DNA of 62,997 nt, counting the filler, from Rhabdomonas costata (Eukaryota), in assembly GCA_019059605.1 (NCBI GenBank). It is 45 parts of 45 records of this genome, joined end to end, with 100 filler letters (N's around TTAATTAATTAA, not from the genome) between each part and the next. Parts side by side here need not be neighbours in the genome. Positions count along the whole stretch, not along the records: positions 49,082 to 50,383 come from JAHMHO010020038.1; 44 more parts are not named here. One strand, 5' to 3'. How positions within the stretch are numbered: the first letter of the stretch is position 1; every line of letters starts with the position of its first letter. Positions 1,404 through 58,792 of this stretch are shown piece after piece. Position numbers and translations under genes: made by a program. The notes beneath the pieces were generated by a model. The model had not been told where the DNA came from. It did no database searches and saw only the letters and a list, made by a program, of their open reading frames with translations.

Positions 1404-3141
1404 GGGGGTTTGGCGGGAACTGACCATGGACTACTGGACACAGTGGCTTTGCATCGTAGGAAAACCCATTGCTGCTGCGTGCCACTGCGCGTTGCGGTGA
1501 GAATGCTCAGTGGATGAGCAAATGGCACGTTTACTCTCTTATGTGTGTTCGGCAGATTCCGGACTGCAGCGAAGCGCTGTTTGAGGTGAACTTCAACGAG
1601 CTGTCCTACGAATTCGTCACGGTATCTTTTGTTTGTGTAGCAATTGTGCATATGTGTTTGGTATGGATGAGTCGCGGAAACATGTGATACGTCGACCCTC
1701 CTTGGCGTGGGATGGCGTGGGACGTTGGGACTGGCGTGACATTCCTTCTTTTTCAACTGTAAAAAGAAAACTGGAAAACTGGATGGATTTTTTGTTTTTA
1801 TAAAGTATGTTAAAAACTGTTACAAAAAAGTGAATGTTACGCTTTATGAAGGAATTGGCTCCACTGAATTGTTAGCCGGCTGGCTTTGAAAACTCACTGT
1901 GGAGTGATCGGCACACCCACGTCCAAGTGCCGCAGTGCTCTACCCATGTTGCGGTTTCGCACGGCAGGGGGAGAGCCGTCGGGCCGGCTCCGAGCCCCCT
2001 GGAGCGGTAGCCTACCCGCCCTTGCAGGAGCTTTCTCTTCAGTAGCTGTAAAGCCGAGGAGGAAAGACAGAGAGAGCCTCCTCCCCTTCCGCTACACTCC
2101 CCTTCTTCCTTCGGATTTTTTCGGGCGCTCATTGAACATGCCTCCTCCCCGATTTCTCTCCGCTCCGCTGGGCTTGTGCCTGTTTTTGGTTTTGCATGTG
2201 ATCCGGGGTTCACTCCCCTTCCACCACCCAGCACCTCTACCCGTCTCCCTCCCACTGCATAGCGCCTTCGGGGGTGGCCTGCTTGACCCCCCCGTCGTTG
2301 TTTTTAGAGCAAAACTTTTGCTGTCCAACTGTAAACTTTGTGACTTTGTGTTCCGTCCTGCTTTTCCAGAAATGTGGCGGCAGTTTTGTCCTATGAGTGG
2401 CGGAATTGCGATCTGGCTGCGATCAGAAATTCACCGCAATGATTCATACTCATTCGGGCGTTTTTCACATTCGAAATTCCTTATTGGTATCCTTGGTATC
2501 ACGGAGGGTCGGAGTGGGGGTCAAAGGCTTGAATTTAATTTCGCTGGAAAGCACAGTTAAGGATTCCTGGATTTTTGATGCCTGTTTTCCTTTTATTTTC
2601 TCCCTCAACGTTTTTGCTTCCACTTCACAGGTGTGGACTGAATATTCTCTTTTCCTGAGAAGTTTCAGTCCACACCTGTGAAGTGGAAACAAAAACACCA
2701 ACCCACNNNNNNNNNNNNNNNNNNNNNNNNNNNNNNNNNNNNNNNNNNNNTTAATTAATTAANNNNNNNNNNNNNNNNNNNNNNNNNNNNNNNNNNNNNN
2801 NNNNNNTATTACTCTTATTCGTTGCTTGTGAGAAAGTCGTGCTGGCATGGTGCACCACTCACTGGACGGTTGGGTTCTTAGTGGTCGGAGTTTGACAAGC
2901 AGTGTTATGGTTATTTCTATATGAACTTAGTGTTGGACAAACCCTCAGGAGTAAACTTTGTTGTTTTTGGCCTATTTGACCTATCTAACTCGCGATCGAA
3001 ATGTTCCTAATATAATCTACATGGAACATGACAAATAGAGTGAATATATAGGCATAAACTCTGTCCAGGATCGCGCATTCACTATGTAACTTTCTTCGTT
3101 TGCTTGCCCGCATTGTTTTCTGTTCCCTTTTCCGTGCACAG

Positions 3142-4109
3142 AAACTCCAAAACGTTCCTTCCTATCGAGCTTACCGCCAGCTTGGGTTACGCCGAAGCCA
3201 CCGCCGCACTTCTCTCGGCTGGTTCCCACTTTGGACACGCGTTGTGGGAGGCCTCTGTCCAGGGCCATGCGGATGTCGTTAGTGTTCTGCTGGAGGCTGG
3301 GATGAGCCCATGCGCCCGTTTGCGCGGCGAGCGAAGCGCACTGCACTTTGCAATCCTGTGCGCTCGTTCTGAAGTGGGCAAGGTCCTCATCGAGCGTGGT
3401 GCCACCCTGCAAGCACCGCTTCCCGAAGACCTTCGGGAAAATCTTCTTCCCTCAGACAGCAACCTGCTGCACCTGGCAGCTGTACTGGCCACCAAGGAGA
3501 CCGTCCCGCTGGTGCAAGCACTCTACGCCAAGGACCCCAGTTTGGCTCAGGCCCGAAACGCTGACGGCAAGCTGCCCGTGGACTACGCGCCAGACTTCTT
3601 GCACTCCGCTTTCCTCACTGGAGAACAACTGACGACGGTGCAGCGTCTCACCGGCCAAATGCTACGAACGCACATCTCAGACTCCACAGACACCGCAGAG
3701 CTGGAGGCTGAGCGGGTGGCTTTCGCCCAGGCCGCGCGGGCCGCAGTCACCGGGGGGGCATCTCTGAACCTCACCGATCGTCGCGGGTGGACCCCCCTGG
3801 TGAGATGTGTGATCTACGGTGACCTTTCCTCTGTACGCCTCCTTCTGGAGTGTCAGGCCGACCCGAACAGCCTTTCTTCCTCTGGCCACAGCCCCCTGAT
3901 GTGGGCCCAGCACTGTGGGCACCGAGAGATCCAGGACTGCCTGGTGGAAGCCGGGGCCACCCTCTCCCCGGGGTGCCGGGCCGGGCTTGACCGCCTGGAG
4001 CATGCGGCTGCCGGTGCCGATAAAGAGACACTCTCCTTACTTCAGCCCAGGCTAGCCTCTGAAGATCTCCTGACAGCCCCCAGCACGGCTCGTGGAGAAC
4101 CCAAACCCC
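3142..4109 (+). CDS. Ankyrin-repeat protein (long exon, 3' truncated)
   Basis: Several ANK motifs (SALHFAI, NLLHLAA, GWTPLVRCV, GHSPLMWA, ADPN) in a ~320-aa open frame after a CAG acceptor. Confidence 0.9.
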
Positions 4110-10746: not shown

Positions 10747-11427
10747 CTACGGCGTGCTTGCAGTTCTGGTGGCAGTGCAGATGTCGATTGCAACAGCGAG
10801 CGCTCTAAAGGTGCGACCCACGTTCTGTGTTCTTGAAGTTAAGTGCATTGCACCGTAAACTCTTGATCTTCTCGTTTTACAGAGCTCCGGACCATTGCAC
10901 TCAAGTCCCGATGCATCCGACTGATACCCAACACCAAGGTCTCGACACTTTTGCAACCGAGGCTGCGCCCGCATAAGTGACATTTCTCCACAGAAAGTGA
11001 GACACAAAAAATTCTATGAAGGTGGCAGGGCGGCTTCCTCCTCCCTCTCTCCCTCCGCCGCAAGTGTGCAGTCGATTTTAAATGACATCGCCCTCTAACC
11101 CCCCACCCACACACACCCAACACNNNNNNNNNNNNNNNNNNNNNNNNNNNNNNNNNNNNNNNNNNNNTTAATTAATTAANNNNNNNNNNNNNNNNNNNNN
11201 NNNNNNNNNNNNNNNNNNNNNNNTTGTTTGTTTCTTGATCCTTGTTGGGTGATGAAGACCTGGAACGTATGCCGATGTGAGCCATTGAAGGAATAAGCCC
11301 CCCACCCGCCATCCGACAGACTTCTTTGGGCATACCAGTTGTTGCGAGTGCCTTCTTTTAAACTCTATTATCTCATAAGAGGAGGATTGTGAAAGGGCTG
11401 GCAGTGCGGAGGGTTTGGGATTCTCAG

Positions 11428-12196: not shown

Positions 12197-15100
12197 GTGT
12201 GCCGTTCTACCTCCCTCCACTGCTCTCAAATGTTCAGTCCTTCTGCGTGATTCCTTCCTTGTGAGGTAAAGTGCATGCCTTCTCTTGACACCGGGTCGAA
12301 CCCAGATCTTGCGGATACTGCGGTGCTAAGGCACTCGTTTAACCCCTGTCGCTCGGTCCCACAACTGCAGCTCAAGCGCCGAAAGAGGTGAAAGTCAGAG
12401 TTTGAACGTGAAGCGTCCTTAGCGTCCTCATGTATTAGTGTGTGCAACGGGGCACATTTTCGAAAATGTTTGTCTTCACGTGGAATTTGCTCTGCTTTCT
12501 TGAGTTCTGTCGGTGTACCCACACACNNNNNNNNNNNNNNNNNNNNNNNNNNNNNNNNNNNNNNNNNNNNTTAATTAATTAANNNNNNNNNNNNNNNNNN
12601 NNNNNNNNNNNNNNNNNNNNNNNNNNGGGTGGCCCTTGGGCTCGCGCAGCAGAGAGAAAGGGACGAGCTGCACAACCGCCTGGCCTCGTCCGCCTCGGGA
12701 TGGGGTCCCTCCACCACAAAGCCTATTTGGGGAGCGAGGGAGAAAGACCGGGGTAAACCGGGAGGCCATATTTGTCCTTCCTTAAATTTTGGAAATCTCT
12801 GAGCGTAATAAATCATGGAACAATTGAGAAGGGGGAAGGTTTTAGCAGTGCGGCTTTGCGGGGCACCCCCTCCTCGCACACGTATTCGCGCTACCTTACA
12901 ACAGTACTAACTTGAACTGGAACCACCAATTCGACTGGTTGGGGTGGAGCTCGTTAGTTCTCAGCAGTGCCTTTTTCCCTTCTCCCCAATTCGCTCCTTT
13001 CCCCGCCGGCGCAAGGTTGCTCCCATACCTTTTCACATTACTCTCCATTGTCGTGATGGCTCTAGTCTCAGCTTACGGGCTCGGCTGATTCCCTCCTGAA
13101 ACTCTGAGTGGAAAGTGGTCGCCTTATAAGGAGGTTGAAGGGGCTCCTTGAACAAGTGATGATCAAAGAAAATCGAAGACCAGCTGTGGCTTTCCGGTAT
13201 TTTCCTCACTTTGTACCATACTACTGAATTTGCTTCATTGTGCGGTTCGGGCACACCGTATCAATTTTGCGTATCTTCAATGCGAGATACTTTTTATCCG
13301 GGAAAGATAACGGACACGTCTGGAGAACTACCCCGGCAGATTAACTTGCGCTAGGTGCATTGGACACTTCACTGCAGCACACTTCGGCCCTTGTTTTGGA
13401 GAGGTGTCACCTCACAACAGTTGCTGCTGATTCCATTCAAGAAGAAGAAGTTTCGTCCCAAGGAGTACTGGCCTCGAGCGCTTCAGCGAGTAAGCCCCGT
13501 TTGGTCTTCAATGGCGTCTCTGATGGGGTATGTACAAAAATGCTATTCGGCGTTGACCAATCAGTTCGCAGGCACGTGCGGAAGGTAAGTGAGGGAACTT
13601 CAGGACGGGAACGTCCGTCAGGACGTCAGGAGGGGAATTAAATACAAGGTGGTTCGCTTCCTCTGATTACATTTCTCATTCGTCATATGTCTCATTCGTC
13701 TCATGCTTTTTTTTTTGCACAGTAGCGCTCCCCACGCGCTTTTCCCTCGATCGGTACTCTAAAAGTCTCTTCCCCCCGACCATACACACTCTCTCTGAAC
13801 CTCTGTTCCTCTCGTCTGACACGAAAGAGAAAAGATGCTTCCCGCAGGAGCCACCCCGAAATGGCAGTACTACAACACCCGAACGGCACAGGTGGTGCCC
13901 CTCCCCCACACCCCACACACACCCAACACNNNNNNNNNNNNNNNNNNNNNNNNNNNNNNNNNNNNNNNNNNNNTTAATTAATTAANNNNNNNNNNNNNNN
14001 NNNNNNNNNNNNNNNNNNNNNNNNNNNNNTGTGGTTCGCCTCCGGCCCCGAGGTGTGCGCGAATTTTTCCCGGGGTGGGGTGGAGGGGGTGTTCGGCCGA
14101 GTCTATTTAAGTTGTCGGCATCGGGGCATCGCCGCAACTGTCGGGAGTCACCCCGAAAACAGGGCGGAATGCATTTCGCCCTACCAGGTGTCCTTTTAAA
14201 ATGTAACAATAATTCTTTTTGAATAAAATTAAGACATAGTATGGTTGTTGGGATGTGATGTTGGGTAGATCTTTTCCCTGTTCACTGGGTGCCCTCCCAT
14301 GACCATAGCGCCATGGTGCCGTTGCCAGGGACAGTGCCTGGCCTCAGACAGGCTTCGCCGTGGTGCATTTCTGCGAACTTATTTCCGCTTGGTAACGCTT
14401 TCGTTGGGCTAGGCTGGCGGATGTGAGTGCACAAGGACAAATCAGTGTCTTCTCTGAAATGTGTTAAGGGGGGGAATGGATTGCCATACTGCTGAGCGGG
14501 AGGTAAAGGGTAATGGAGAGCGTCGAATCCACGCTCTGTAGTAGCTTTCACTGCTTCTCACCGGAATTTTTTTCGAAATGAAACAGGCGGAGGAGCTGTG
14601 CGCGATGCTCTATGTGCAAAACAAGGCCCTCAAAATGAAGGAGCAGGACATGGCCGTTCTCCGGGATCGCAGGGTGCAACCCACCCCCTCCCTTTCCCCC
14701 GCACCATCACACTCTCACAAACACACACACTCCCAGACATAGTGCCACCATACCCGCTGCAGCTTTCACGTCTTCATTTTGATTGCAAACCAGTGTGCAA
14801 TGGTTCCGTAGTGCATGAGGGTCTGGGTCCAGCACCAGGCAGCTTCACCACGCTCATTTCAGTGCCACTCCGGTACTGACAGCAGCAGCAGCACTACTCA
14901 CCAAGCCGAATGCCCTGGATCAAAGTGATGAATGCTGGCGAACACAATTTTGGTTTTTCGCCTTGGGGTCGCTTAGTCAGTGGCGCTGCGTTCTGAATAA
15001 CTAGCATAAAAAACATTATAGGCCCAAAACAAGGGTACCCGTGAGATCTCTGCCGCAGAGCGCAAGCAGATGGAGCAGAAGTTGTATTTGGGGATGAAGT

Positions 15101-23612: not shown

Positions 23613-26008
23613 CTGAGGCGTCCATCAGCAAAGAAATCTCACTGGAATGGCACACCAACTTCACCACCTCAACACCAGTACTCGACAACCAGACAGAGGA
23701 TTGTGCGATTGCAGGCGCGGCAGTGACACCCACACCCAAACTCACCCAACACANNNNNNNNNNNNNNNNNNNNNNNNNNNNNNNNNNNNNNNNNNNNTTA
23801 ATTAATTAANNNNNNNNNNNNNNNNNNNNNNNNNNNNNNNNNNNNNNNNNNNNGACGATTGTGGCAGAGAGTTCCTGCGAAAGTTTCAGTGGGTCTGGCT
23901 TTCGGAGCTTTTGACGCTGCACTCATAATTCGTAGTGAGAACGATCCCTCGTTGGATCTGAATCTCACATACGAATGCCCTTCACCTCCTGTTACGCCTC
24001 GGGAAGTAAAGTTAAAGCAATATTAGCAGTCTGCCCCGTCTCTCAATGATCTTACATCTTCTTTTTGGTGTGGCTATCTCCAGACGCTATCTTCCTGTAC
24101 CGCGATGAGCATCGGCTCTTGTAAAGTGGTCTTTGTGTGTGGAGGTACCAGGTACCACCCGTGCGATGTTTACCCGGGCGAAAGCAGACGAACCCTGGTA
24201 CCTGGTTGGGCAAAGCGATAATTATGCCACGAAACCTCAAAGGCGAGATGTGAAGACCCTCAAAAGGTCGTTTTATGTCCAAAAAAAAAAGACTAAAATT
24301 CGTGAAGCAGCCCATAAATTCGCGTGCCATGAGAAAAGCATGCCACTATGTGGCCTTTCCAGTGTTTGCAAAGATACTTGCTGCCAACAACCAGGCTGTT
24401 CTAATGCAACCTTTTAGCAGACATTGCACAGCACATTTTTTCCTAGTAAATGCATACGCATCCTTTCATTACATCTCCAAAAGCTCTCAGGTGGCGTGGG
24501 CAGTTAATGTCACGATTCAAATGACCCTGTTTGCTTTTTATACAGCCGACATTCCAAGCATTGCTCCCCAAAATGACAAACGCAAGGGAGCTGGCAAGAC
24601 GAAATCAGAAAAAGCTCAATTGCCCTCTAGATAACCACGCTGTTACTTTGTCGGCAAATCAGGATGCCAAATCAGGATGCGCCTTGGACGACGTTACTGC
24701 AGAATTATGCTCTGAATTTGTATGCCCTCCAGAGCCGCTATTTTGTGGGAAAGTGTTCGCATTTTGGCCCAGCCATATCAAGTACATGGTTCGGAAAGTG
24801 TCGAGGAGGATGTATTTAATAAGCGAATAACTCCAGGATGTCTTGGACCGCGTGGCTCAGCATAGAGGAATGATTCCGGGAATTCAGTGCTCGAATAGCA
24901 CGGGCTTTGATTACGGGCTTTGACTTTGAACGGGTACTACTGGTACCCAGTAGCCCCCCCCCTCAAACACACACACACTACGTTACAACACCCGGGAAAG
25001 CATCCTCCCTTCTTTCGCCAGTTCTGTGCTTTCACCTCAACGCTCCTGAACCTTGGCTAGCACCTATGTGAACTCAGAACTTGATCGCTTGCTGACCTTT
25101 TGGGGCAGTGCTTCTCTCGCGTTGCTCCCTGTTGGGTACAATGAAGGCGAAGGTGANNNNNNNNNNNNNNNNNNNNNNNNNNNNNNNNNNNNNNNNNNNN
25201 TTAATTAATTAANNNNNNNNNNNNNNNNNNNNNNNNNNNNNNNNNNNNNNNNNNNNGGGTTTTGTGGTGCAGCGCGTATACGCCGGGTATAAAAGAGGCT
25301 GCTTCGATTTCGCTCTCGTGCCACTTGTGTGCTTAAAGTAGTTGAAGAAAAGAATGGTGTGTGTGTGGGGGGGGGGGGTGAATTGGCCAAGAGAGTGACG
25401 TCAGGGAGACGGAACATCTGTCCTGCTGTTTGGTTGTGGGCATGGCCACTGATGTCTGTTTGCAATCCGTGTCAAATGAATTTAACCCTACATCCAGGGG
25501 TGGAGAAGTAGACCACCTTATATTTCCCCGCCAGAATATCGCTTTGCAATTAAGGGGATGTCGTTACCCAACTCCCCTGCCAAAAAACAAGTAAATGCTG
25601 TCTCGGGCCTCACGCTGTTGTGTGTCTATCGAACCCATTTCTCTCTCTCTCTGTGTTTTGGGTGTGAGCATCCCTGAGCATCCCAGGCAGAAGAAACGGC
25701 GAAGAGAGGCCTTCAAGCCGTAAATGCAAATGCAGTTGTCTCCCCCCCCCTGATTTTTTTTTGCCTCTGAGCTGCTTTTGTTCGTGATGTTCATTGGGTG
25801 CTGGACATGGACCGTTTTTTTTTCCGAATTCAATATAAGCAGACGGAATGGGTGCTTGCGGTCACTATTGAGTTTCCCAAGGACTTCCAACAGAGAGATG
25901 ATCCACACCCCGAGAAGAGTCCAGCGAAGGAAGTTGAATGCCTATCTGGAGGATCCACAACTGCAGTGTCTCGCGCAGGTAGTGTGACTGCTCATGTGTG
26001 TGGCACAG

Positions 26009-26419: not shown

Positions 26420-27029
26420 AGCACCCGCCAGTCCAAAGCAGTCACCAACAGTCAGTCAGACAATAGCCAGCGCGCTAAGCGCCCAACACACTCGCTCGCG
26501 TACTCGCCCACTTGCTCACTCACACAACAAACACAAACACAAACACAAACACAGATCGGNNNNNNNNNNNNNNNNNNNNNNNNNNNNNNNNNNNNNNNNN
26601 NNNTTAATTAATTAANNNNNNNNNNNNNNNNNNNNNNNNNNNNNNNNNNNNNNNNNNNNGGGGGGGGGTTGGGAAAAGGCGGTCGTTGGCTGAGCGCTGA
26701 AACATCCGGGTCGGGATACATGCGATCATCGATTTTTTTATTGCATGCTGCGATAGCTCGACTGTCTTGTGTGAGAGGCGCAATTTGAGGAATTAACGGT
26801 TGGATCTGCAAATCGCATGTTCTGCTAAGTCCGCTTCCCTCCGCCCACCCGCCGGCCCTTTCCCATTCCTGCTTTCTGAACGATTTGGCTATTGCCGAGC
26901 TAGTTAGCTCTCACTGTGCGGTTGTATCTCTTTCTTTCTATGCTGCGTACCGGAAAGCAACTATTTGGACGGTTCTGTTGTCCTTTCCTTTGCCCGCACC
27001 GCCCTCTAACTCCAACCGATCAATCATAG

Positions 27030-28063: not shown

Positions 28064-29325
28064 TGTGGGGGTTGCCCCTCACTTGTATTTCTGGGAACAT
28101 GAGGGAAAGCAGGAGCCATCACCTGTCGGGCTTTCCAGGGTCAATGAACAGGAGGCGGCCATGGTGTGTAGTCTTGCGTGCTACCTTGTTGAGTGCGCCG
28201 TTCCACGTCGGTAGATTGCCATTCTGACGCCATATAAAGGGCATCTGATGCTGATTCGTAAAAATCTTTTGAAGGAAAAGCCATGGAGTGAGAAAAGACT
28301 TCTATCTTTCGGTCACTCGAATCCTGATGAGTGCTTTGTTTCCATCGTGGACCGTTTTCAAGGCGATGAGGCGGATGTCGTCATCATCTCTCTCGTTGTA
28401 GACAACGGCTCAGCCACACCCTTTGTGAAACTAGTTAATCGAGTGGTTGTTCTCTTGAGCCGGGACCGCCTGGGAATGTACATTCTCGGCAACACGAGCT
28501 ATTTTGCAAGCTCACATGACAACTTGGGCCATTGGTTGCAGATCTTTGATATGCTGAAAAAACCCACCTGCTCTGACTCACAAGAAAAGGAAGTTCCTTC
28601 CTACACGGGGCCTCGGCTTGGCAGACGCCTACCGCTGCGGTGTCAGGAGCACCCGAACTCAGTTTATTTCGCCTCGAACGAGAATGAAGTCCGGACGGGA
28701 TTCTGCGACGTGATCTGCAGTCACATCCTCCCGTGTTTCCACCCTTGCGGGCGCCGCTGTCACTGGCCATCGACTACACACAATACCAAATGTCAAGAGA
28801 AAATTCTTTCCGCATGCGCAGAGCATCCACCAGAATGCTTGAAATTGTTTGAGAACGCCAAGCTAACCTCATCTGAGGCTTCTCTACAGAAGGCCGTTCC
28901 CATCTTTTGGTGCGACGTCCCGGTTTCTGTTAAACTTCCGAGCTGCTCGCACCAAATACAGTGTCATGTCATGAGGCGAAGGCATTCAAACAAAACAAAA
29001 AGCCTTACCACGAATGCCGAGAGCCAGCTCCGGACCTTTACCGTCGAGCAACGTGCAATCATCCTCTGCAATGCAGTTGCACAGAGTACAGGAAATACCA
29101 ACACACTCCAGCCGCAGTCCCGCGTTGTGTGGAAAACGTGGCTTTCAAGAACCCAGAGTGTGGGCTCCAGTGTACCCTGCCCTGTTTTCTTCGCGCAGAG
29201 CTGGAAGAGATGGCCGATAAGACTGCTGTGACTGATGTGGAAGAGTCCATTCTTCCACTTCCCTTCATCAGCGTCCCCCAGATGAATTGCTGCCCCTTTC
29301 CACCTCAGTCTTGTATCACCGGAAG
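28064..29325 (+). pseudogene. ZNFX1-like SF1 (UPF1-type) helicase C-terminus plus NF-X1-type zinc fingers, disrupted
   Basis: NEQEA...YLV...IAILTPY, VDRFQGDEADVVIISLV, NRVVVLLSR, GMYILGN, then CxxxCxxxLPCxHxCxxxCH. In-frame TAG at 28212-28214 and a frameshift near 28960. Confidence 0.85.
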
Positions 29326-30121: not shown

Positions 30122-30769
30122 TCAAAGAAATTCGAAGACGCAAAAGAGCAGCTCTTTAGGGAGGCACTCAGCTTTTGAAACAGCCAAAAGGACTGCTCGA
30201 ATCACGTGACGAGTGCTCACGGGCATGTACGCGAAGAGGTGGGGGTTGAACTGCAATGAAAAGGCCCGAACAACATCCGGATTCGATGTCAGATCGAGAA
30301 CTGAAGTTTTCTTTCCTTCCTGAATAAGCGCTTCTTCTCCCTCGGCAAGGAGCCTGCCTCCTCGTATGAAGGGGATATCCGTTCTCGCACCCCAACAACG
30401 GAGAACGTATACTAACCGCGCCTTTTCAGAGCGCATTGCAAGGTGAAGGGGTGTCTCCATCACGGGTATGCACCGTACCTCAGCTTCGTAACCTTCCTCG
30501 CGTGGATCATCAATTTCAGCAGTCTCAGGTGATTTTTCAACTTTCTCGTGCTCATAGTGGTGGGCTCGAGAATTTACGTCCGCTCCCCTCGAAAGAAGCA
30601 ATACAGCAGCTCTTATAACTGCAACTTCGTCACCCTCCTTGCGGTTGCAGACCATGTGGAGAGCCGAATATGCCGAATGCTTGATTGTAGCCACGTTCGT
30701 TCTGAGCTGTTGAAGTTTCCCTGGAATTGGGATCAGCTCCGGCGGAGAGTAAAGCAGCCAGACACCCAA
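30122..30769 (-). CDS. Ankyrin-repeat protein with C-terminal F-box-like motif (terminal exon)
   Basis: YSALHMVC, LLLSRGADVN, ETPLHLAM; ends LPKELLFCVFEFL-stop. Confidence 0.8.
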   Translation of the reverse strand: MGVWLLYSPPELIPIPGKLQQLRTNVATIKHSAYSALHMVCNRKEGDEVAVIRAAVLLLSRGADVNSRAHHYEHEKVEKSPETAEIDDPREEGYEAEVRCIPVMETPLHLAMRSEKARLVYVLRCWGARTDIPFIRGGRLLAEGEEALIQEGKKTSVLDLTSNPDVVRAFSLQFNPHLFAYMPVSTRHVIRAVLLAVSKAECLPKELLFCVFEFL

Positions 30770-31222
30770 CCCNNNNNNNNNNNNNNNNNNNNNNNNNNNN
30801 NNNNNNNNNNNNNNNNTTAATTAATTAANNNNNNNNNNNNNNNNNNNNNNNNNNNNNNNNNNNNNNNNNNNNGGTTTTTTTTTTTCACAAAAATGCCCGT
30901 GCACTCGCGCACTTTTTGAGCGTTTGACGTTTTGAAGGGGCACTGAAGTCCCTTGCCGTTAAGCGTCAGCTTGCGGTACTGTGTGTGTTTCGTGCAATTG
31001 GACATGGACAACTCTTTGGGTTTCTTCTGTTTAGCAGCTGTTATTGGGTCGCCTTTTGTTGTGTCGAGCTCCTTGTGTGTGTGTGTGTGTGTGTGGAAAG
31101 CGCTTAGCTCAGGTCACGGTGGCGCTCACAACACCAACACGCACACAATACACCAATTTTTTTGAAGTGCTGTGAGCGAGTTTCCGTCCCCCGTCTCCCC
31201 ACGCGCTCTCCCGCTACCTCAG

Positions 31223-43478: not shown

Positions 43479-44683
43479 GGTTTTTTTTCCATTTTACAAT
43501 TTTCATTTTTATATTTTTCTATTTCAATATCTTTATTATTATTTATTCTCAATGTTTCTAATTTTTCATTTTTGTTTAATTTTTCTATTTCAATGTCCTT
43601 ATTTATTCTCAATGTTTCTAATTTTTCATTTTTGTTTAATTTTTCTAATTCAATTTCTTTATCATTATTCATTTTTAATGTTTCAAGTTCTATATTGTTT
43701 GTTATTCTATTTTCTAATTCTTTAATTCTATTGTCTTTTGTTACTATTGATTGTAACGGCATATTATCAACTAAATATTTTAAATATTCTATTACTTGAT
43801 CGATGTCAAAATTTTTATTTACATTTAGTATTTCGGTTTGTTTCTTATTTTTTATTTCGATTGTCGTTAATATTTTTTTAACATTCATTTCCTTCTTAAA
43901 TATCTCTTCAACTTTACTATTATTGTCACATTCAATAACAAAAATTATTTCAAAATTTTCAAACATTAATTTATGTTCTTTATAATCGCGTCTATAAATA
44001 TCATTTGATATACCAAATTTATAATACAATTCACCATTATAAAAAAAGCAACTAATGTAAAATACATTTTTTTTATGAAATGTGTACAACATATTCTCAT
44101 CATAAAACGATTTTGTTTTTGGTTTACTAGATGATGATGGTTGAGGTATAATTTGTGTTTGTTGTGATTGATAGGATCCTGTTCTAAATACTTTATCTAT
44201 AATATTGTATACCCAATTACGTAATGTTTGAGCTTCACTTTTTTTACTTTTAACTGCTAATTCAATTACACCCAAGTGATTTATATATTTTGTTGTACCT
44301 TCGTTTCCTTTTACTTTTATATTTTTTGATAGTAGAATTCCGCTACGATCAAAATTCGACAAAATATTTTCTAATATTTTGATGTTGTCAACATATACAT
44401 GATTAGATATTGCCTCTCTCGTGTTCTCATAACCTAAAAATTCTGCTATATTTTTACCTTTGAACCATATTATATTACTATCTAAATCAATAATATGACT
44501 AAATGTTACATTTAAAAATGTAAACAAAGTTGTTTGTATATATCGTAATTCGTCTATCCTCGTTTTGTATTCATTTATTTTTGTTTCATCATATAATATT
44601 AAATTATCAAGATGATTAAGATGATTAAGATCATTTTCAATTTTAATGTTATCATAAGGAATTGGTTGTTCACTTATATTTTC
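43479..44683 (-). CDS. Bro-N domain protein with T5orf172/GIY-YIG-like domain and coiled-coil repeats; AT-rich, virus-like; both ends truncated
   Basis: WFKGKNIAEFLGYENTREAISNHV...YINHLGVIELAVKSKKSEAQTLRNWV...FRTGSY (Bro-N), then FYI...YKFGIS....R..EH...F...FVIECDNN..VE..FK...TE. Intronless; the frame stays open up to the fold-back junction near 44683. Confidence 0.85.
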
Positions 44684-45171
44684 TTATGATAACATTAAAA
44701 TTGAAAATGATCTTAATCATCTTAATCATCTTGATAATTTAATATTATATGATGAAACAAAAATAAATGAATACACAACAAANNNNNNNNNNNNNNNNNN
44801 NNNNNNNNNNNNNNNNNNNNNNNNNNTTAATTAATTAANNNNNNNNNNNNNNNNNNNNNNNNNNNNNNNNNNNNNNNNNNNNTTTGGTGTTGTTGGGTTT
44901 GTTCATCTCTGTGTTCTCAGAATTGCTGTGTTTAACAAACTCGAACTACATTTCTTTCAGTGTAATATTCCTGCATGCGATGATGTTGCTCTGCTTTTTC
45001 TTGGGTGGTGAGAAAGCCATTTGAGAAAAAGGAAACCTGTTTATCAAAATATGGGACAAGTATGTTAGGAAAAAGCCGAACGAACCATTAGCGGCAAGCT
45101 TGCGCCTATTCAAGCCCGACCTTGACCTTGACGAGAGAAGTGTAAGGTGGAGGGAGGGAGAGCTCGCGTAC

Positions 45172-45558: not shown

Positions 45559-46745
45559 CTGTGAGTCCCCCCCCCCCGGGTGGAATGAGCATGCGCACAC
45601 GCCTGAAAGCAACATGCACCACCTGAACTGCTCCCCCAAAACAGGTTCCTGGGGTCTTTCGAAAGGAAAGAGGGGGGGGATTTCTTATTTCTGCACGCAA
45701 CGAAGAAAGGATCCAAAGATTTGTGATTTGTGTGTCTTTGGGGGACTGGGGGACGGAATAAGTAAACGCTACCCCAACAGTCTCAATGATGATACTTCAA
45801 CGTCCGTTCGTGTGAGTCATTGGAGAGCGGATAGGGGGAAGGGGAGGCGAAGGATGAGGGAGGTTTGTGTGTATGGGGCTTGCCAAAATGCCTTTTTGCT
45901 TTTTTTTTTGCAGTGCCATGCGTTTACCGCCCCTCACCCTCCAGCGCAATAGCAGGCCGATACAGAAATGGGCATCAGCATGTAAAAACCTGGTCAAACC
46001 CGGCGGTCAGCTGGGAGATCTCCCCATCCACACTGAACACGGCCGCAGAGGAGGACGAGGGTCCGGAGGCATCCATTACGCCCCGCCCCGTTCCGCCCAG
46101 ACCTCAACCCCGAACCCCCTAGACCACTCCAACGGACAGCAGGGCGACCCCCAATACTGCAGAAACAAAACCCCNNNNNNNNNNNNNNNNNNNNNNNNNN
46201 NNNNNNNNNNNNNNNNNNTTAATTAATTAANNNNNNNNNNNNNNNNNNNNNNNNNNNNNNNNNNNNNNNNNNNNGTGTTGGGTGTGGTTGGTTGGGTGGT
46301 TAGGGGGGGCCTCCTTAACTTAACAAGCGACGAGCGAGGGTGATGATGTGGGAACGAATTTCAGGGGAGGACTGTGCCTGATAATCAAAAAGATCCCTTG
46401 GGCAAGGAGGGCCAGAGAGTTACCCAATTATTTGCCCCCCCCCCTTTTTTTTACCGCGGAGAGAATTTTTTATATTTTGAGCTATATTGTTATATCTTGA
46501 GAAGGTTTCCTCAGTGAACCACAGGAAAAAGAGCGGCAGTACCCTGCGCAGTTGTTTTTATTCGGCTCCTTTTTGAGGTGCGGTTAACTCTGAAAAACAG
46601 CAAAAGCCCTCATGCGCACCATTCGACACGCAATACTTCACCGCTGGCTATATTCCATTACGTGGCATGCCCACGACCTGTGGGGTATTCTTCCCACACC
46701 ACGGCCACCAGTGGAGAGAAGCCCTGCGTGCACGGACATCTGCAG

Positions 46746-49081: not shown

Positions 49082-50383
49082 CCAGCAGCAGCAGGGTGAG
49101 CCCGCGGAGGAAGATACACTGCACGTCCTCCAGGCGATCGGGGAGAGTCTTGTGGTGCTCCCGCCACCGCAACACCCCCCAAAGCACGGAGACCCCGGCA
49201 TAGGTCAGGAACAGAAAGGAGTACCACACCACACAGCTCCCTGCGAGGACGTGAAGCAAACCACGGCAGACCGCACCAAACTGCAAAGCAGACCATTGCA
49301 CACAGAAGCCCAGCCGAAAAAACCAGTAAAAATACCTTAACGGACGATACCTCATCACTCCACCGGAAGTCTTGAAGACACAATAGCGAGAAAACCTCGT
49401 TTGCCACATCACGTTGGGGACCATCGGAACCTCGCAAGACACGTCCCCACGTAGATTACGAAAGTTCCCACAAAGGTCACTCCTGTACAAGGGCTTGGGG
49501 AACGTGATCGTTTGGCTGGAGCCGGTTCACGAAATGGAGCAGAGGGGAAACGAATGAGCATCCAAATCTCGGGAGTCAGGGATTAAAATCCGATAGCAAA
49601 TTGTTACCCCGTGGTGTAAGTTTGTGAGCATGCCGATCGCCACAAATGCACAAATGCGGCCCGCAGAAATGAGAATGAAGGGGCTCTGAAAAACCGTTTT
49701 AGCAAACAGCGTGGGGGTCCCTGCAGTTAGATTGACTGACTCGCGTCCTTCACATCGGCAATCCTGGCCAACACAGGGTTTTCCAGAGGAGCACATCACT
49801 AAGCTCTTTTCCTAATCATCCTAGTTACTTCCCACCACCGCAAAAAAAAAGCGCTTCGTACTGAGTGAGGGCATGAGGATGTAGTTCTGCTGGAGTATTT
49901 CAGAGTCGAATGAAAACCCCAGCAGGCCCGAACTGGAGCGGGCAGTCCCCACCTCAGCTGCGGTGGCTCCGACGTTCAGAGTAGAACAGTAACTGAGCCA
50001 AACATACAAAATAACAGCAAAATAACAGCTGACATGAATTCCTTTGCCTCAGGCCAGCAACACCCAGCGACGCCTTCGGGGAGGACTCCCAAGCACACCA
50101 GCAAGCCCAAGGAGGCGTATAGCAGGGGCCCCGCTGAGTCCCTTTCGATGGTTATGTTAGGGCCCGCCTGGAACAGCAGGGCGTAGAACGTCAGGTAGTA
50201 GATCACCAAGGGGATGAACGTCCGCCACTGCCCGTGTACCAGCCGCTGCTGAACCCCCAGCAGCAGCAGGGTGAGCCCGCGGAGGAAGATACACTGCACG
50301 TCCTCCAGGCGATCGGGGAGAGTCTTGTGGTGCTCCCGCCACCGCAACACCCCCCAAAGCACGGAGACCCCGGCATAGGTCAG
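49082..50383. repeat. Circularly permuted contig: exact 127-bp terminal direct repeat, 1175-bp unit
   Basis: 49082-49208 is identical to 50257-50383. Confidence 0.95.
49082..50383 (-). CDS. Multi-pass membrane repeat protein; two exons per 1175-bp unit
   Basis: Exon B runs 49240->49082, continues through the junction 50256->50099 (CAG|...|GTGTGC). Exon A is 49889-49862 (CAG|...|GTACGA). Total 345 nt, phases compatible, about four hydrophobic segments. Confidence 0.6.
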
Positions 50384-57899: not shown

Positions 57900-58780
57900 T
57901 CACATAAGGCGGTCAAGGTTATCCTGACCATCCGCGAAGCCTTGCTCCGCGGCCCTCCGGTAAAGCTCTGCTGCCATGGAGAGGTCTTCGTCAACTCCTT
58001 TGCCCTGCTCGAAGCACAGCCCAAGGTTGTTCTGCCCGGAGGCGTCGCCCTGCTCAGCGGCTTCCTGATACAACTCGATCGCCTTGGAGAGGTCTTTGCC
58101 AACCCCCTTGCCGTGCTCATAGCAGCTCCCCAGGTGGCTCAGTGCCTTTGTGTTGCCCTGCTCGGCGGCCTTTCGGTACTGCTCCGCGGCCTTGACCAGG
58201 TTGCTGCAAACCCCGATGCCATGCTCGAAGCAGGTGCCCAAATTGAACTGCGCCATTGAGTACCCTTGTTGGGCGGCCTTTTGAAACAGCTCTACCGCCT
58301 TACAGAGATCTTGGGCAACCCCCTCACCATGCTCATAGCAAAAACCGAGGTGGTTCTGCGCTTGGGCGTTGCCTTGCTCGGCGGCCTTCTGAAAAAGCTC
58401 TACCGCCATGGAGACGTCTTCATCAACCCACTTGCCCGCGAAGTAGAACCACCCTAGACAATACTGTGCCGTCCCGTTGCCCTGCTCCGCAGACTTTTGG
58501 TAGAGCCCAATCGCCTTAGAGAGGTCTTTGGCAACCCCCTGGCCCCACTCATGACACTGACCCAGGCTGAACTGTGCGGAGGCGTTGCCCTGCTCGGCCG
58601 CTTTCTGGAACATCTCTGCTGCCTTGGCGAGGTCCTTGGCAGCTCCCCTGCCGTGGAAATAGCACTCTCCAAGACTGAACTGTGCGGAGGCGTTGCCATT
58701 CTGGGCGGACTGCTGGTACAGCTCTTTCGCCTTGGCAAGATCTTTGGCAATCCCCGCTCCAGTTGCGCAGCACAAACCCA
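57900..58780 (-). CDS. Sel1-like repeat protein (about eight 36-aa repeats), 5' truncated
   Basis: Repeated AQFSLG.CYE.G.GVAKDL.KA.ELFQKAAEQGN units in one open frame. Confidence 0.95.
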
Positions 58781-58792
58781 AGATCGGAAGAG
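58781..58792 (+). other. Untrimmed Illumina adapter
   Basis: AGATCGGAAGAG at the contig end; a partial AGATCGG also lies at 26553-26559. Confidence 0.95.

What the first reader, a model, noticed from the sequence alone, without database searches (positions are those of the whole stretch)
49082..50383. 1175-bp circular/tandem unit whose two exons splice into an endless, stop-free 4-TM repeat
Seen: the contig ends are an exact 127-bp direct repeat, the usual sign of a de Bruijn graph cycle at k=127. On the minus strand, exon A (49889-49862, 28 nt) and exon B (49240 through the junction to 50099, 317 nt) have canonical CAG/GT sites, and B's donor is the locally preferred GTGTGC. A ends in phase 1 where B starts, and B ends in phase 0 where A starts. 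The 345-nt loop therefore has no stop and needs no start, giving 115 aa per turn: QNYILMPSLRSCVVWYSFLFLTYAGVSVLWGVLRW...IFLRGLTLLLLG...FIPLVIYYLTFYALLF...PLLYASLGLL. An alternative GC-donor model (exon ends 50074 and 49957; 438 nt) also closes in frame. Inference: a collapsed array of near-identical exon-intron units encoding a large repeat membrane protein or a polyprotein (polyproteins are known in Euglena for LHC and RbcS), or an extrachromosomal circle. I do not recognise the protein family.
Basis: partly seen in the sequence, partly recalled or inferred. Interest (0 to 1): 0.78.

Follow-up and report, generated by a model that had tools for sequence, protein, structure and literature searches.

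The report
Gene fragment assembled as a cycle
A 1.2-kb contig that closes on itself holds two real exons from the middle of an ordinary euglenid membrane-protein gene, and the "endless" reading frame is arithmetic that chance gives easily, not evidence of a giant repeat protein.

Summary
The sequence facts hold. Contig 49082-50383 has an exact 127-bp terminal direct repeat (unit 1175 bp), the only one among the window's 45 contigs. On the minus strand a 28-nt exon A and a 317-nt exon B have the stated sites and give a stop-free 345-nt loop.

Homology shows what the exons are. They encode residues ~125-248 of a small, unnamed membrane-protein family of 295-355 aa (Neometanema parovale, Euglena gracilis, two unnamed ENA records; best E 2e-17). 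All 4 homologues carry this region once, between N- and C-terminal parts that the contig lacks. The A->B splice is supported by 3 of 4 homologues.

Loop closure carries no weight. All 90 control strands can be closed the same way, and with the A->B intron fixed 172 of 782 site pairs close. The unit also ends inside a predicted membrane helix.

The contigs are whole-genome-amplification amplicons: 58 of 90 ends carry primer-derived G/T runs. Missing flanks are therefore normal here.

Whether the head-to-tail join is a real tandem duplication, a small circle or an amplification chimera cannot be decided without reads. I lean to a tandem duplication (0.42). Interest is low.

The parts
49082..49208 (.). 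127-bp terminal repeat, copy 1 (lies inside exon B)
   Evidence: Exact match to 50257-50383, spacing 1175
50257..50383 (.). 127-bp terminal repeat, copy 2 (same piece of exon B)
49862..49889 (-). Exon A, a 28-nt micro-exon (QNYILMPSL plus the first base of an Arg codon)
   Evidence: Sites CTCCAG| and |GTACGA. Adding it to B raises the BLOSUM62 local score by +21 (P0003), +29 (P0004), +7 (P0006) and 0 (P0005). The motif matches LYIQIPTLTNC and HILLPTLRSC in the homologues.
49241..49861 (-). 621-nt GT-AG intron between A and B
   Evidence: GTACGA...CTCGCAG. The reading frame changes between A and B.
49082..49240 (-). Exon B, 5' part (RSCVVWYSFLFLTYAGVSVLWGVLRWREHHKTLPDRLEDVQCIFLRGLTLLLL)
   Evidence: tblastn with P0003-P0006; alignment A1
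50099..50256 (-). Exon B, 3' part (GVQQRLVH...PLLYASLGLL), ending at the GTGTGC donor
   Evidence: phmmer match covers query residues 3-96/97. The local alignment to P0003 ends exactly at the donor.
49890..50098 (-). 209-nt spacer between B's donor and A's acceptor. It must hold the head-to-tail join. It contains an 11-nt x2 tandem (50007-50029) and the TGA (49976-49978) that ends the read-through frame.
   Evidence: No homologue matches it. It has no G/T- or A/C-only run of 10 nt or more, and the whole unit has no primer match better than 6 mismatches. Its fold is unremarkable, z = -1.0. TRF row.

Best explanation
The contig is an internal piece of an ordinary gene: a 28-nt micro-exon and a 317-nt exon separated by a 621-nt GT-AG intron. 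The gene encodes a roughly 300-350-aa, multi-helix membrane protein of a small unnamed family, seen so far in euglenids and in two unnamed ENA records.

The assembler closed the contig into a 1175-bp cycle because the sequenced DNA (whole-genome-amplification amplicons) placed the 3' part of exon B 209 nt upstream of exon A. That means at least about 1.1 head-to-tail copies of the two-exon module were present.

I take the join most likely to be a real, recent tandem duplication or short array of this module in the genome, whose unique flanks were simply not amplified. The in-frame closure follows from the module being phase 0 at both ends, a 1-in-3 outcome. It does not show that an endless, repeat or polyprotein product is made.

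Shown: the repeat, the exons, the homology, the single-copy architecture of the relatives, and the amplicon nature of the contigs. Inferred: that the join pre-existed in the genome.
For: The 127-bp overlap is exact and unique among the 45 contigs.

Exon B is homologous to the middle of P0003 (E 2e-17, 54%), P0004 (2e-13), P0005 (1.3e-10) and P0006 (3e-4). Each matches in one stretch. Two are named euglenid proteins. The homology ends at the GTGTGC donor, and the A->B splice improves the alignment in 3 of 4 homologues. The N-terminal FWxxEH part and the C-terminal HHYWWGWLLAHF / SLAAQA / FLHG part of the family are not on the contig.

The contigs are amplicons. The universal primer TGTGTTGGGTGTGTTTGG followed by K10NN (passage in PMC10781638) matches 4 contig termini against 0.17 expected. 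Primer-derived G/T-only runs of 8 nt or more sit at 58 of 90 contig ends and on 39 of 45 contigs. Absent flanks are therefore the rule in this assembly.

The cycle carries no such run at its ends. It has no primer match better than 6 mismatches, which is the same as other contig interiors. The spacer has no G/T or A/C run of 10 nt or more. The join is therefore not an end-to-end concatenation of amplicons through their primers.
Against: There is no read-level evidence of any kind. Depth, the number of independent amplicons across the join, and reads that leave the cycle could not be examined. A single early chimeric amplicon would give the same contig. The contig shows identity between copies only over 127 bp. 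Only 1 of 45 contigs shows the pattern, so no base rate can be estimated. No same-species transcript or second genomic copy was found.
Confidence: 0.42

Rival explanations
1. Amplification or assembly artefact. The gene is single-copy. One chimeric amplicon formed by template switching from the intron after B back to the intron before A on another template, was amplified early, and made the graph close. The true flanks were unsampled or were clipped as short tips.
For: The DNA was whole-genome amplified with K10NN primers. In such data a contig can rest on very few founder molecules. All 4 relatives have the region once. The cycle cuts the gene at places that make no sense for a product.
Against: There is no primer remnant at or near the spacer. 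A direct head-to-tail, same-locus switch is, from recalled knowledge of amplification chimeras, the rarer kind. No branch survives in the contig.
Confidence: 0.35
2. A small extrachromosomal circle of 1175 bp excised from the gene locus, sequenced alongside or instead of the chromosomal copy.
For: The contig is an isolated cycle whose arbitrary start lies inside exon B, not at a plausible unit boundary. Euglenids are known to keep rDNA on extrachromosomal circles (abstract of PMC9082867, seen in the listing).
Against: The unit shows no origin, promoter or complete gene. The primer type points to a PCR-based amplification, which from recalled knowledge does not favour small circles. The sequence alone cannot tell a circle from an array.
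Confidence: 0.1
3. One reading: a long array of identical A-B units lies inside a transcribed gene, and B->A splicing yields a large concatenated membrane repeat protein or a polyprotein.
For: A+B is 345 nt, phase 0 at both ends and stop-free, and the spacer has GT...AG ends.
Against: Closure is at chance level: 90 of 90 control strands and 172 of 782 site pairs. None of the 4 homologues repeats the region. The unit ends about 10 residues into a predicted helix (P0003 helix 239-264, alignment ends at residue 248), leaving three clear helices plus a weak stub. The family's conserved N- and C-terminal parts would be missing from every unit.
Confidence: 0.05

Closest known systems
Unnamed euglenid membrane-protein family (P0003 Neometanema parovale EP01001_P007061, 348 aa; P0005 Euglena gracilis EP00667_P018436, 295 aa; P0004 and P0006, unnamed ENA records)
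   Same: Exons A+B align to residues about 125-248 of P0003 at 54% identity, including the conserved D-[IVM]-[QE]-C-x-F-L-R-G-x-T-L-L core.
   Different: Only the middle third is on the contig, and here it is arranged head-to-tail with itself. The family has no Pfam model and no relative of solved structure. An AlphaFold model from 6 sequences reached only pLDDT 50.
Tandem duplication of an exon module inside a gene (general, recalled knowledge)
   Same: Same-orientation head-to-tail repeat of a phase-symmetric two-exon module with its introns.
   Different: The unique flanks that would prove a chromosomal duplication are not on the contig, and the copy number is unknown.
Euglena polyprotein precursors (LHCPII, RbcS; recalled knowledge, no paper read here)
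   Same: A euglenid, and the idea of several units in one reading frame.
   Different: As recalled, those units are whole mature plastid proteins joined by short cleavable linkers behind a targeting presequence. Here the unit is an internal fragment that splits a helix, and all 4 relatives are single-unit proteins.
De Bruijn-graph cycle contigs (overlap equal to the largest k-mer) from tandem repeats or small circles
   Same: Exact 127-bp overlap, and no amplicon-type ends on this contig while 39 of 45 contigs have them.
   Different: The content is a single-copy-type protein-coding fragment with introns, not a satellite, plasmid or organelle circle.
Euglenid extrachromosomal circular rDNA (abstract of PMC9082867 in the listing)
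   Same: Shows that euglenids maintain extrachromosomal circles.
   Different: That is a complete, functional rDNA unit of much larger size (size recalled). This is a 1.2-kb gene fragment with no RNA family hit.

Membership tests
Unnamed euglenid membrane-protein family (P0003-P0006) | Significant sequence similarity over the central helices | tested here: met
   E 2e-17 to 3e-4 against all 4 members found. tblastn confirms the match on the contig.
Unnamed euglenid membrane-protein family (P0003-P0006) | N-terminal helix followed by FWxxEH | tested here: inconclusive
   Not on this contig or on the other 44 contigs. The contig is a fragment, so absence here says nothing about the gene.
Unnamed euglenid membrane-protein family (P0003-P0006) | C-terminal HHxL, HxHHYWWGWLLAHF, SLAAQA and FLHG motifs | tested here: inconclusive
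   Not on this contig or on the other 44, for the same reason.
Polyprotein or repeat protein | The unit is a complete, self-sufficient protein or domain | tested here: not met
   The unit covers residues about 125-248 of 348 and ends inside helix 239-264 of the low-confidence model. The fourth hydrophobic peak is weak.
Polyprotein or repeat protein | Relatives or transcripts with several units in one frame | tested here: not met
   All 4 homologues match in one stretch, in a search without length limits. Transcripts of this organism could not be examined.
Polyprotein or repeat protein | B->A splice junction in RNA | not testable with these tools
Assembly cycle at k=127 | Exact terminal overlap of k bases and no linear ends | tested here: met
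   127-bp exact overlap. G/T run at the ends is 0 and 0, whereas 58 of 90 contig ends carry a run of 8 nt or more.
Chromosomal tandem duplication | Unique flanks entering and leaving the repeated unit; depth about n times single copy | not testable with these tools
   No own genome and no reads.
Extrachromosomal circle | Resistance to exonuclease, and junction reads without chromosomal flanks | not testable with these tools
   Needs bench work or reads.
Primer-mediated amplicon concatemer | Universal primer or K10 run at the join | tested here: not met
   Best primer match inside the unit has 6 mismatches, typical of contig interiors. The spacer has no G/T or A/C run of 10 nt or more.

The most novel reading that the evidence does not exclude
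The two-exon module really is arrayed head-to-tail inside a transcribed euglenid gene. The hybrid 209-nt spacer is then spliced as an intron, so the cell makes a membrane protein with the three-to-four-helix block concatenated several times. This would be a very young internal repeat expansion caught before divergence.
Probability: 0.05. Interest if true: 0.6.

Novelty: new member of a known kind. Interest (0 to 1): 0.2.

Why it matters
There is little to gain for biology as it stands. The finding adds one more member, as a fragment, to a small uncharacterised euglenid membrane-protein family, and one possible tandem duplication.

It matters more as a caution. In amplicon-based assemblies an isolated cycle needs only about 1.1 copies on one molecule. 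And a stop-free spliced loop can be drawn on any 1.2-kb circle of this DNA.

If the array were real and expressed, it would be a rare view of a membrane protein growing by exon-module duplication.

Tried and rejected

Searches that found nothing:
- Pfam on the two window peptides and on the 4 homologues: no family at meaningful E.
- Rfam on the whole window: 0 matches.
- ESM Atlas on the window peptide: no usable hit.
- ESM Atlas on P0003: only unnamed hypothetical clusters from diatoms and oomycetes (0.91-0.93) and a weak LCCL-protein row (0.78). These are leads I did not test.
- PDB profile search: 0 hits.
- blastn and tblastx of the contig against the other 44 contigs: nothing beyond chance.
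- Metagenome scans: the protein-pattern scan gave 178 pattern matches, none confirmed. An exact 30-nt scan gave 0.

Searches with limited reach:
- The word-index searches were insensitive. With the window peptide (longer proteins only) they found nothing. With P0003 or alignment A1 they found only 2 of the 4 known members each. A same-species transcript could therefore have been missed. It could also be hidden inside P0003's 50%-identity cluster.
- The AlphaFold model of P0003 from 6 sequences reached only pLDDT 50. I ran no fold search on it.

Other checks:
- RNA fold of the spacer: z = -1.0, unremarkable.
- AGGTGTGC is not enriched, 3 against 2.18 expected.
- I rejected closure of the frame as evidence after the controls.
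- I read passages of PMC8219788 for background only. Its authors attribute the fragmentation of a euglenid draft made from amplified DNA to uneven amplification.
- I did not try to establish which assembly the window comes from.

Full report
**What is in the sequence**

The window is not one locus. It is 45 contigs of about 1302 bp joined by N/TTAATTAATTAA linkers. The finding covers one whole contig, 49082-50383. Its first and last 127 bases are identical, giving a unit of 1175 bp. None of the other 44 contigs has a terminal repeat of 11 nt or more. An exact overlap of that length is the form in which a de Bruijn assembler prints a cycle; this is established knowledge of such assemblers, not tested here.

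- Exon A, 49889-49862 (28 nt), lies between CTCCAG and GTACGA.
- Exon B runs 49240 down to 49082, which equals 50383-50257, and on to 50099 (317 nt). It lies between CTCGCAG and GTGTGC.

Together they are 345 nt and translate to the quoted 115 residues with no stop, also when repeated. The alternative 438-nt GC-donor model closes as well.

**What the exons are**

An exhaustive phmmer search with the contig's 135-residue open frame found 4 proteins among 1.84 billion representatives:

| Protein | Length (aa) | E-value | Identity |
|---|---|---|---|
| P0003 | 348 | 2e-17 | 54% |
| P0004 | 335 | 2e-13 | 41% |
| P0005 | 295 | 1.3e-10 | 44% |
| P0006 | 355 | 3e-4 | 43% |

Each matched in one stretch. 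P0003 is a Neometanema parovale protein and P0005 a Euglena gracilis protein in EukProt. The other two are unnamed ENA records.

The match covers query residues 3-96/97.

Splicing A onto B creates QNYILMPSL-R-SCVVWY. This lines up with LYIQIPTLTNCVVWY in P0003 and HILLPTLRSCLEWY in P0004. The splice raises the alignment score over B alone by +21 (P0003), +29 (P0004), +7 (P0006) and 0 (P0005). The 621-nt A->B intron is thus supported by 3 of 4 relatives.

The family has no Pfam model and no relative of solved structure. A model built from only 6 sequences reached pLDDT 50, so I name no fold.

**Why the endless frame is not evidence**

The relatives are ordinary 295-355-residue proteins:
- They begin with an N-terminal helix and FWxxEH, followed by a variable linker.
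- The region homologous to A+B then occurs once.
- A C-terminal half follows with HHxL, HxHHYWWGWLLAHF, SLAAQA and FLHG.

Neither flanking part is on this contig or on the other 44.

A+B corresponds to residues about 125-248 of P0003. The unit ends about 10 residues into the model's helix 239-264 (the model is of low confidence, but hydropathy agrees). Per turn there are three clear hydrophobic segments and one weak stub made across the B->A join. This is not a clean four-helix unit.

Two controls show how cheap closure is:
- I circularised the first 1175 bp of every contig. All 90 strands allow at least 7 two-exon GT-AG stop-free loops of 345 nt or more, and most allow thousands.
- With the homology-supported A->B intron fixed, 172 of 782 donor x acceptor pairs close in frame without a stop.

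With both exon boundaries fixed, closure simply means that the module is phase 0 at both ends, which is a 1-in-3 outcome.

**What the cycle means**

The contig places the 3' end of exon B 209 nt upstream of exon A, which is the reverse of the gene order. The join must lie in that spacer (49890-50098).

The other contigs explain why no flanks are seen:
- The universal amplification primer TGTGTTGGGTGTGTTTGG matches 4 contig termini with at most 2 mismatches. Chance expects 0.17, and 0 of 100 shuffles reach 4.
- 58 of 90 contig ends carry a G/T-only run of 8 nt or more, typically 10-13 nt. 39 of 45 contigs have at least one such end.

The contigs are therefore amplification products that stop at primer sites, and unconnected ends are the norm. 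A cycle then needs only one amplicon, or a few overlapping ones, spanning a little more than one unit. High copy number is not implied.

The cycle contig has no such run at its ends. Its best internal primer match has 6 mismatches, like other contig interiors. The spacer has no G/T or A/C run of 10 nt or more. Amplicons joined end to end through their primers are therefore excluded. The spacer's RNA fold is unremarkable.

**Verdict on mechanism**

Three origins remain, and the sequence cannot separate them:
- A real tandem duplication or short array of the module with unsampled flanks (0.42). I favour this slightly, because the join is clean and in the same orientation at the same locus.
- An early template-switch chimera of the amplification (0.35).
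- A small circle (0.10).

The translated endless repeat or polyprotein gets 0.05. The relatives, the split helix and the controls all speak against it.

Reads, the assembly graph and RNA could not be examined. No second copy of this DNA or gene was found elsewhere. The word-index searches missed known members, however, so a same-species transcript may exist unseen.

**Novelty**

This is a new fragmentary member of a small uncharacterised euglenid protein family, in a common kind of assembly cycle. Interest is low. Its main value is as a warning about reading spliced loops into circular contigs from amplified DNA.

Noticed in passing
Contig ends throughout the window, e.g. 11107-11123, 13913-13929, 23736-23753, 46275-46291: Remnants of a universal whole-genome-amplification primer and its K10 tail sit at contig termini. 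58 of 90 ends carry a G/T-only run of 8 nt or more. The last 10-30 nt of most contigs are therefore primer-derived, not genomic.
   Followed up: yes
58781-58792 and 26553-26559: Untrimmed sequencing-adaptor remnants at contig ends: the reverse complement reads CTCTTCCGATCT and CCGATCT. The adaptor identity is recalled, not tested.
   Followed up: no
43479-44782: A contig of 21.5% GC, against about 52% elsewhere, with a long minus-strand ORF carrying a Bro-N domain (E 1.5e-15) and AT-rich tandem repeats. It is probably from a virus or another organism rather than the euglenid nucleus.
   Followed up: partly
57900-58790 (-), with a 108-nt tandem repeat at 58512-58755: An open frame made of 8 Sel1 repeats (E 3.5e-74). 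The DNA-level tandem repeat reflects the protein repeats.
   Followed up: no
3044-4108 (+), 30122-30772 (-), 28215-29231 (+): Long intron-free frames with ankyrin repeats, and the C-terminal end of an AAA_12 helicase domain.
   Followed up: no
50007-50029: A perfect 11-nt x2 tandem (CAAAATAACAG on the plus strand) in the middle of the 209-nt spacer that must hold the head-to-tail join. Whether it marks the join is unknown.
   Followed up: no
49223-49235 and 49170-49183: Two A/C-only runs on the plus strand, which are G/T-only on the coding strand, lie inside exon B. They are genuine coding sequence (CVVW and LWGVL; CVVW matches P0003) but would be favoured annealing sites for G/T-only degenerate primers.
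   Followed up: partly
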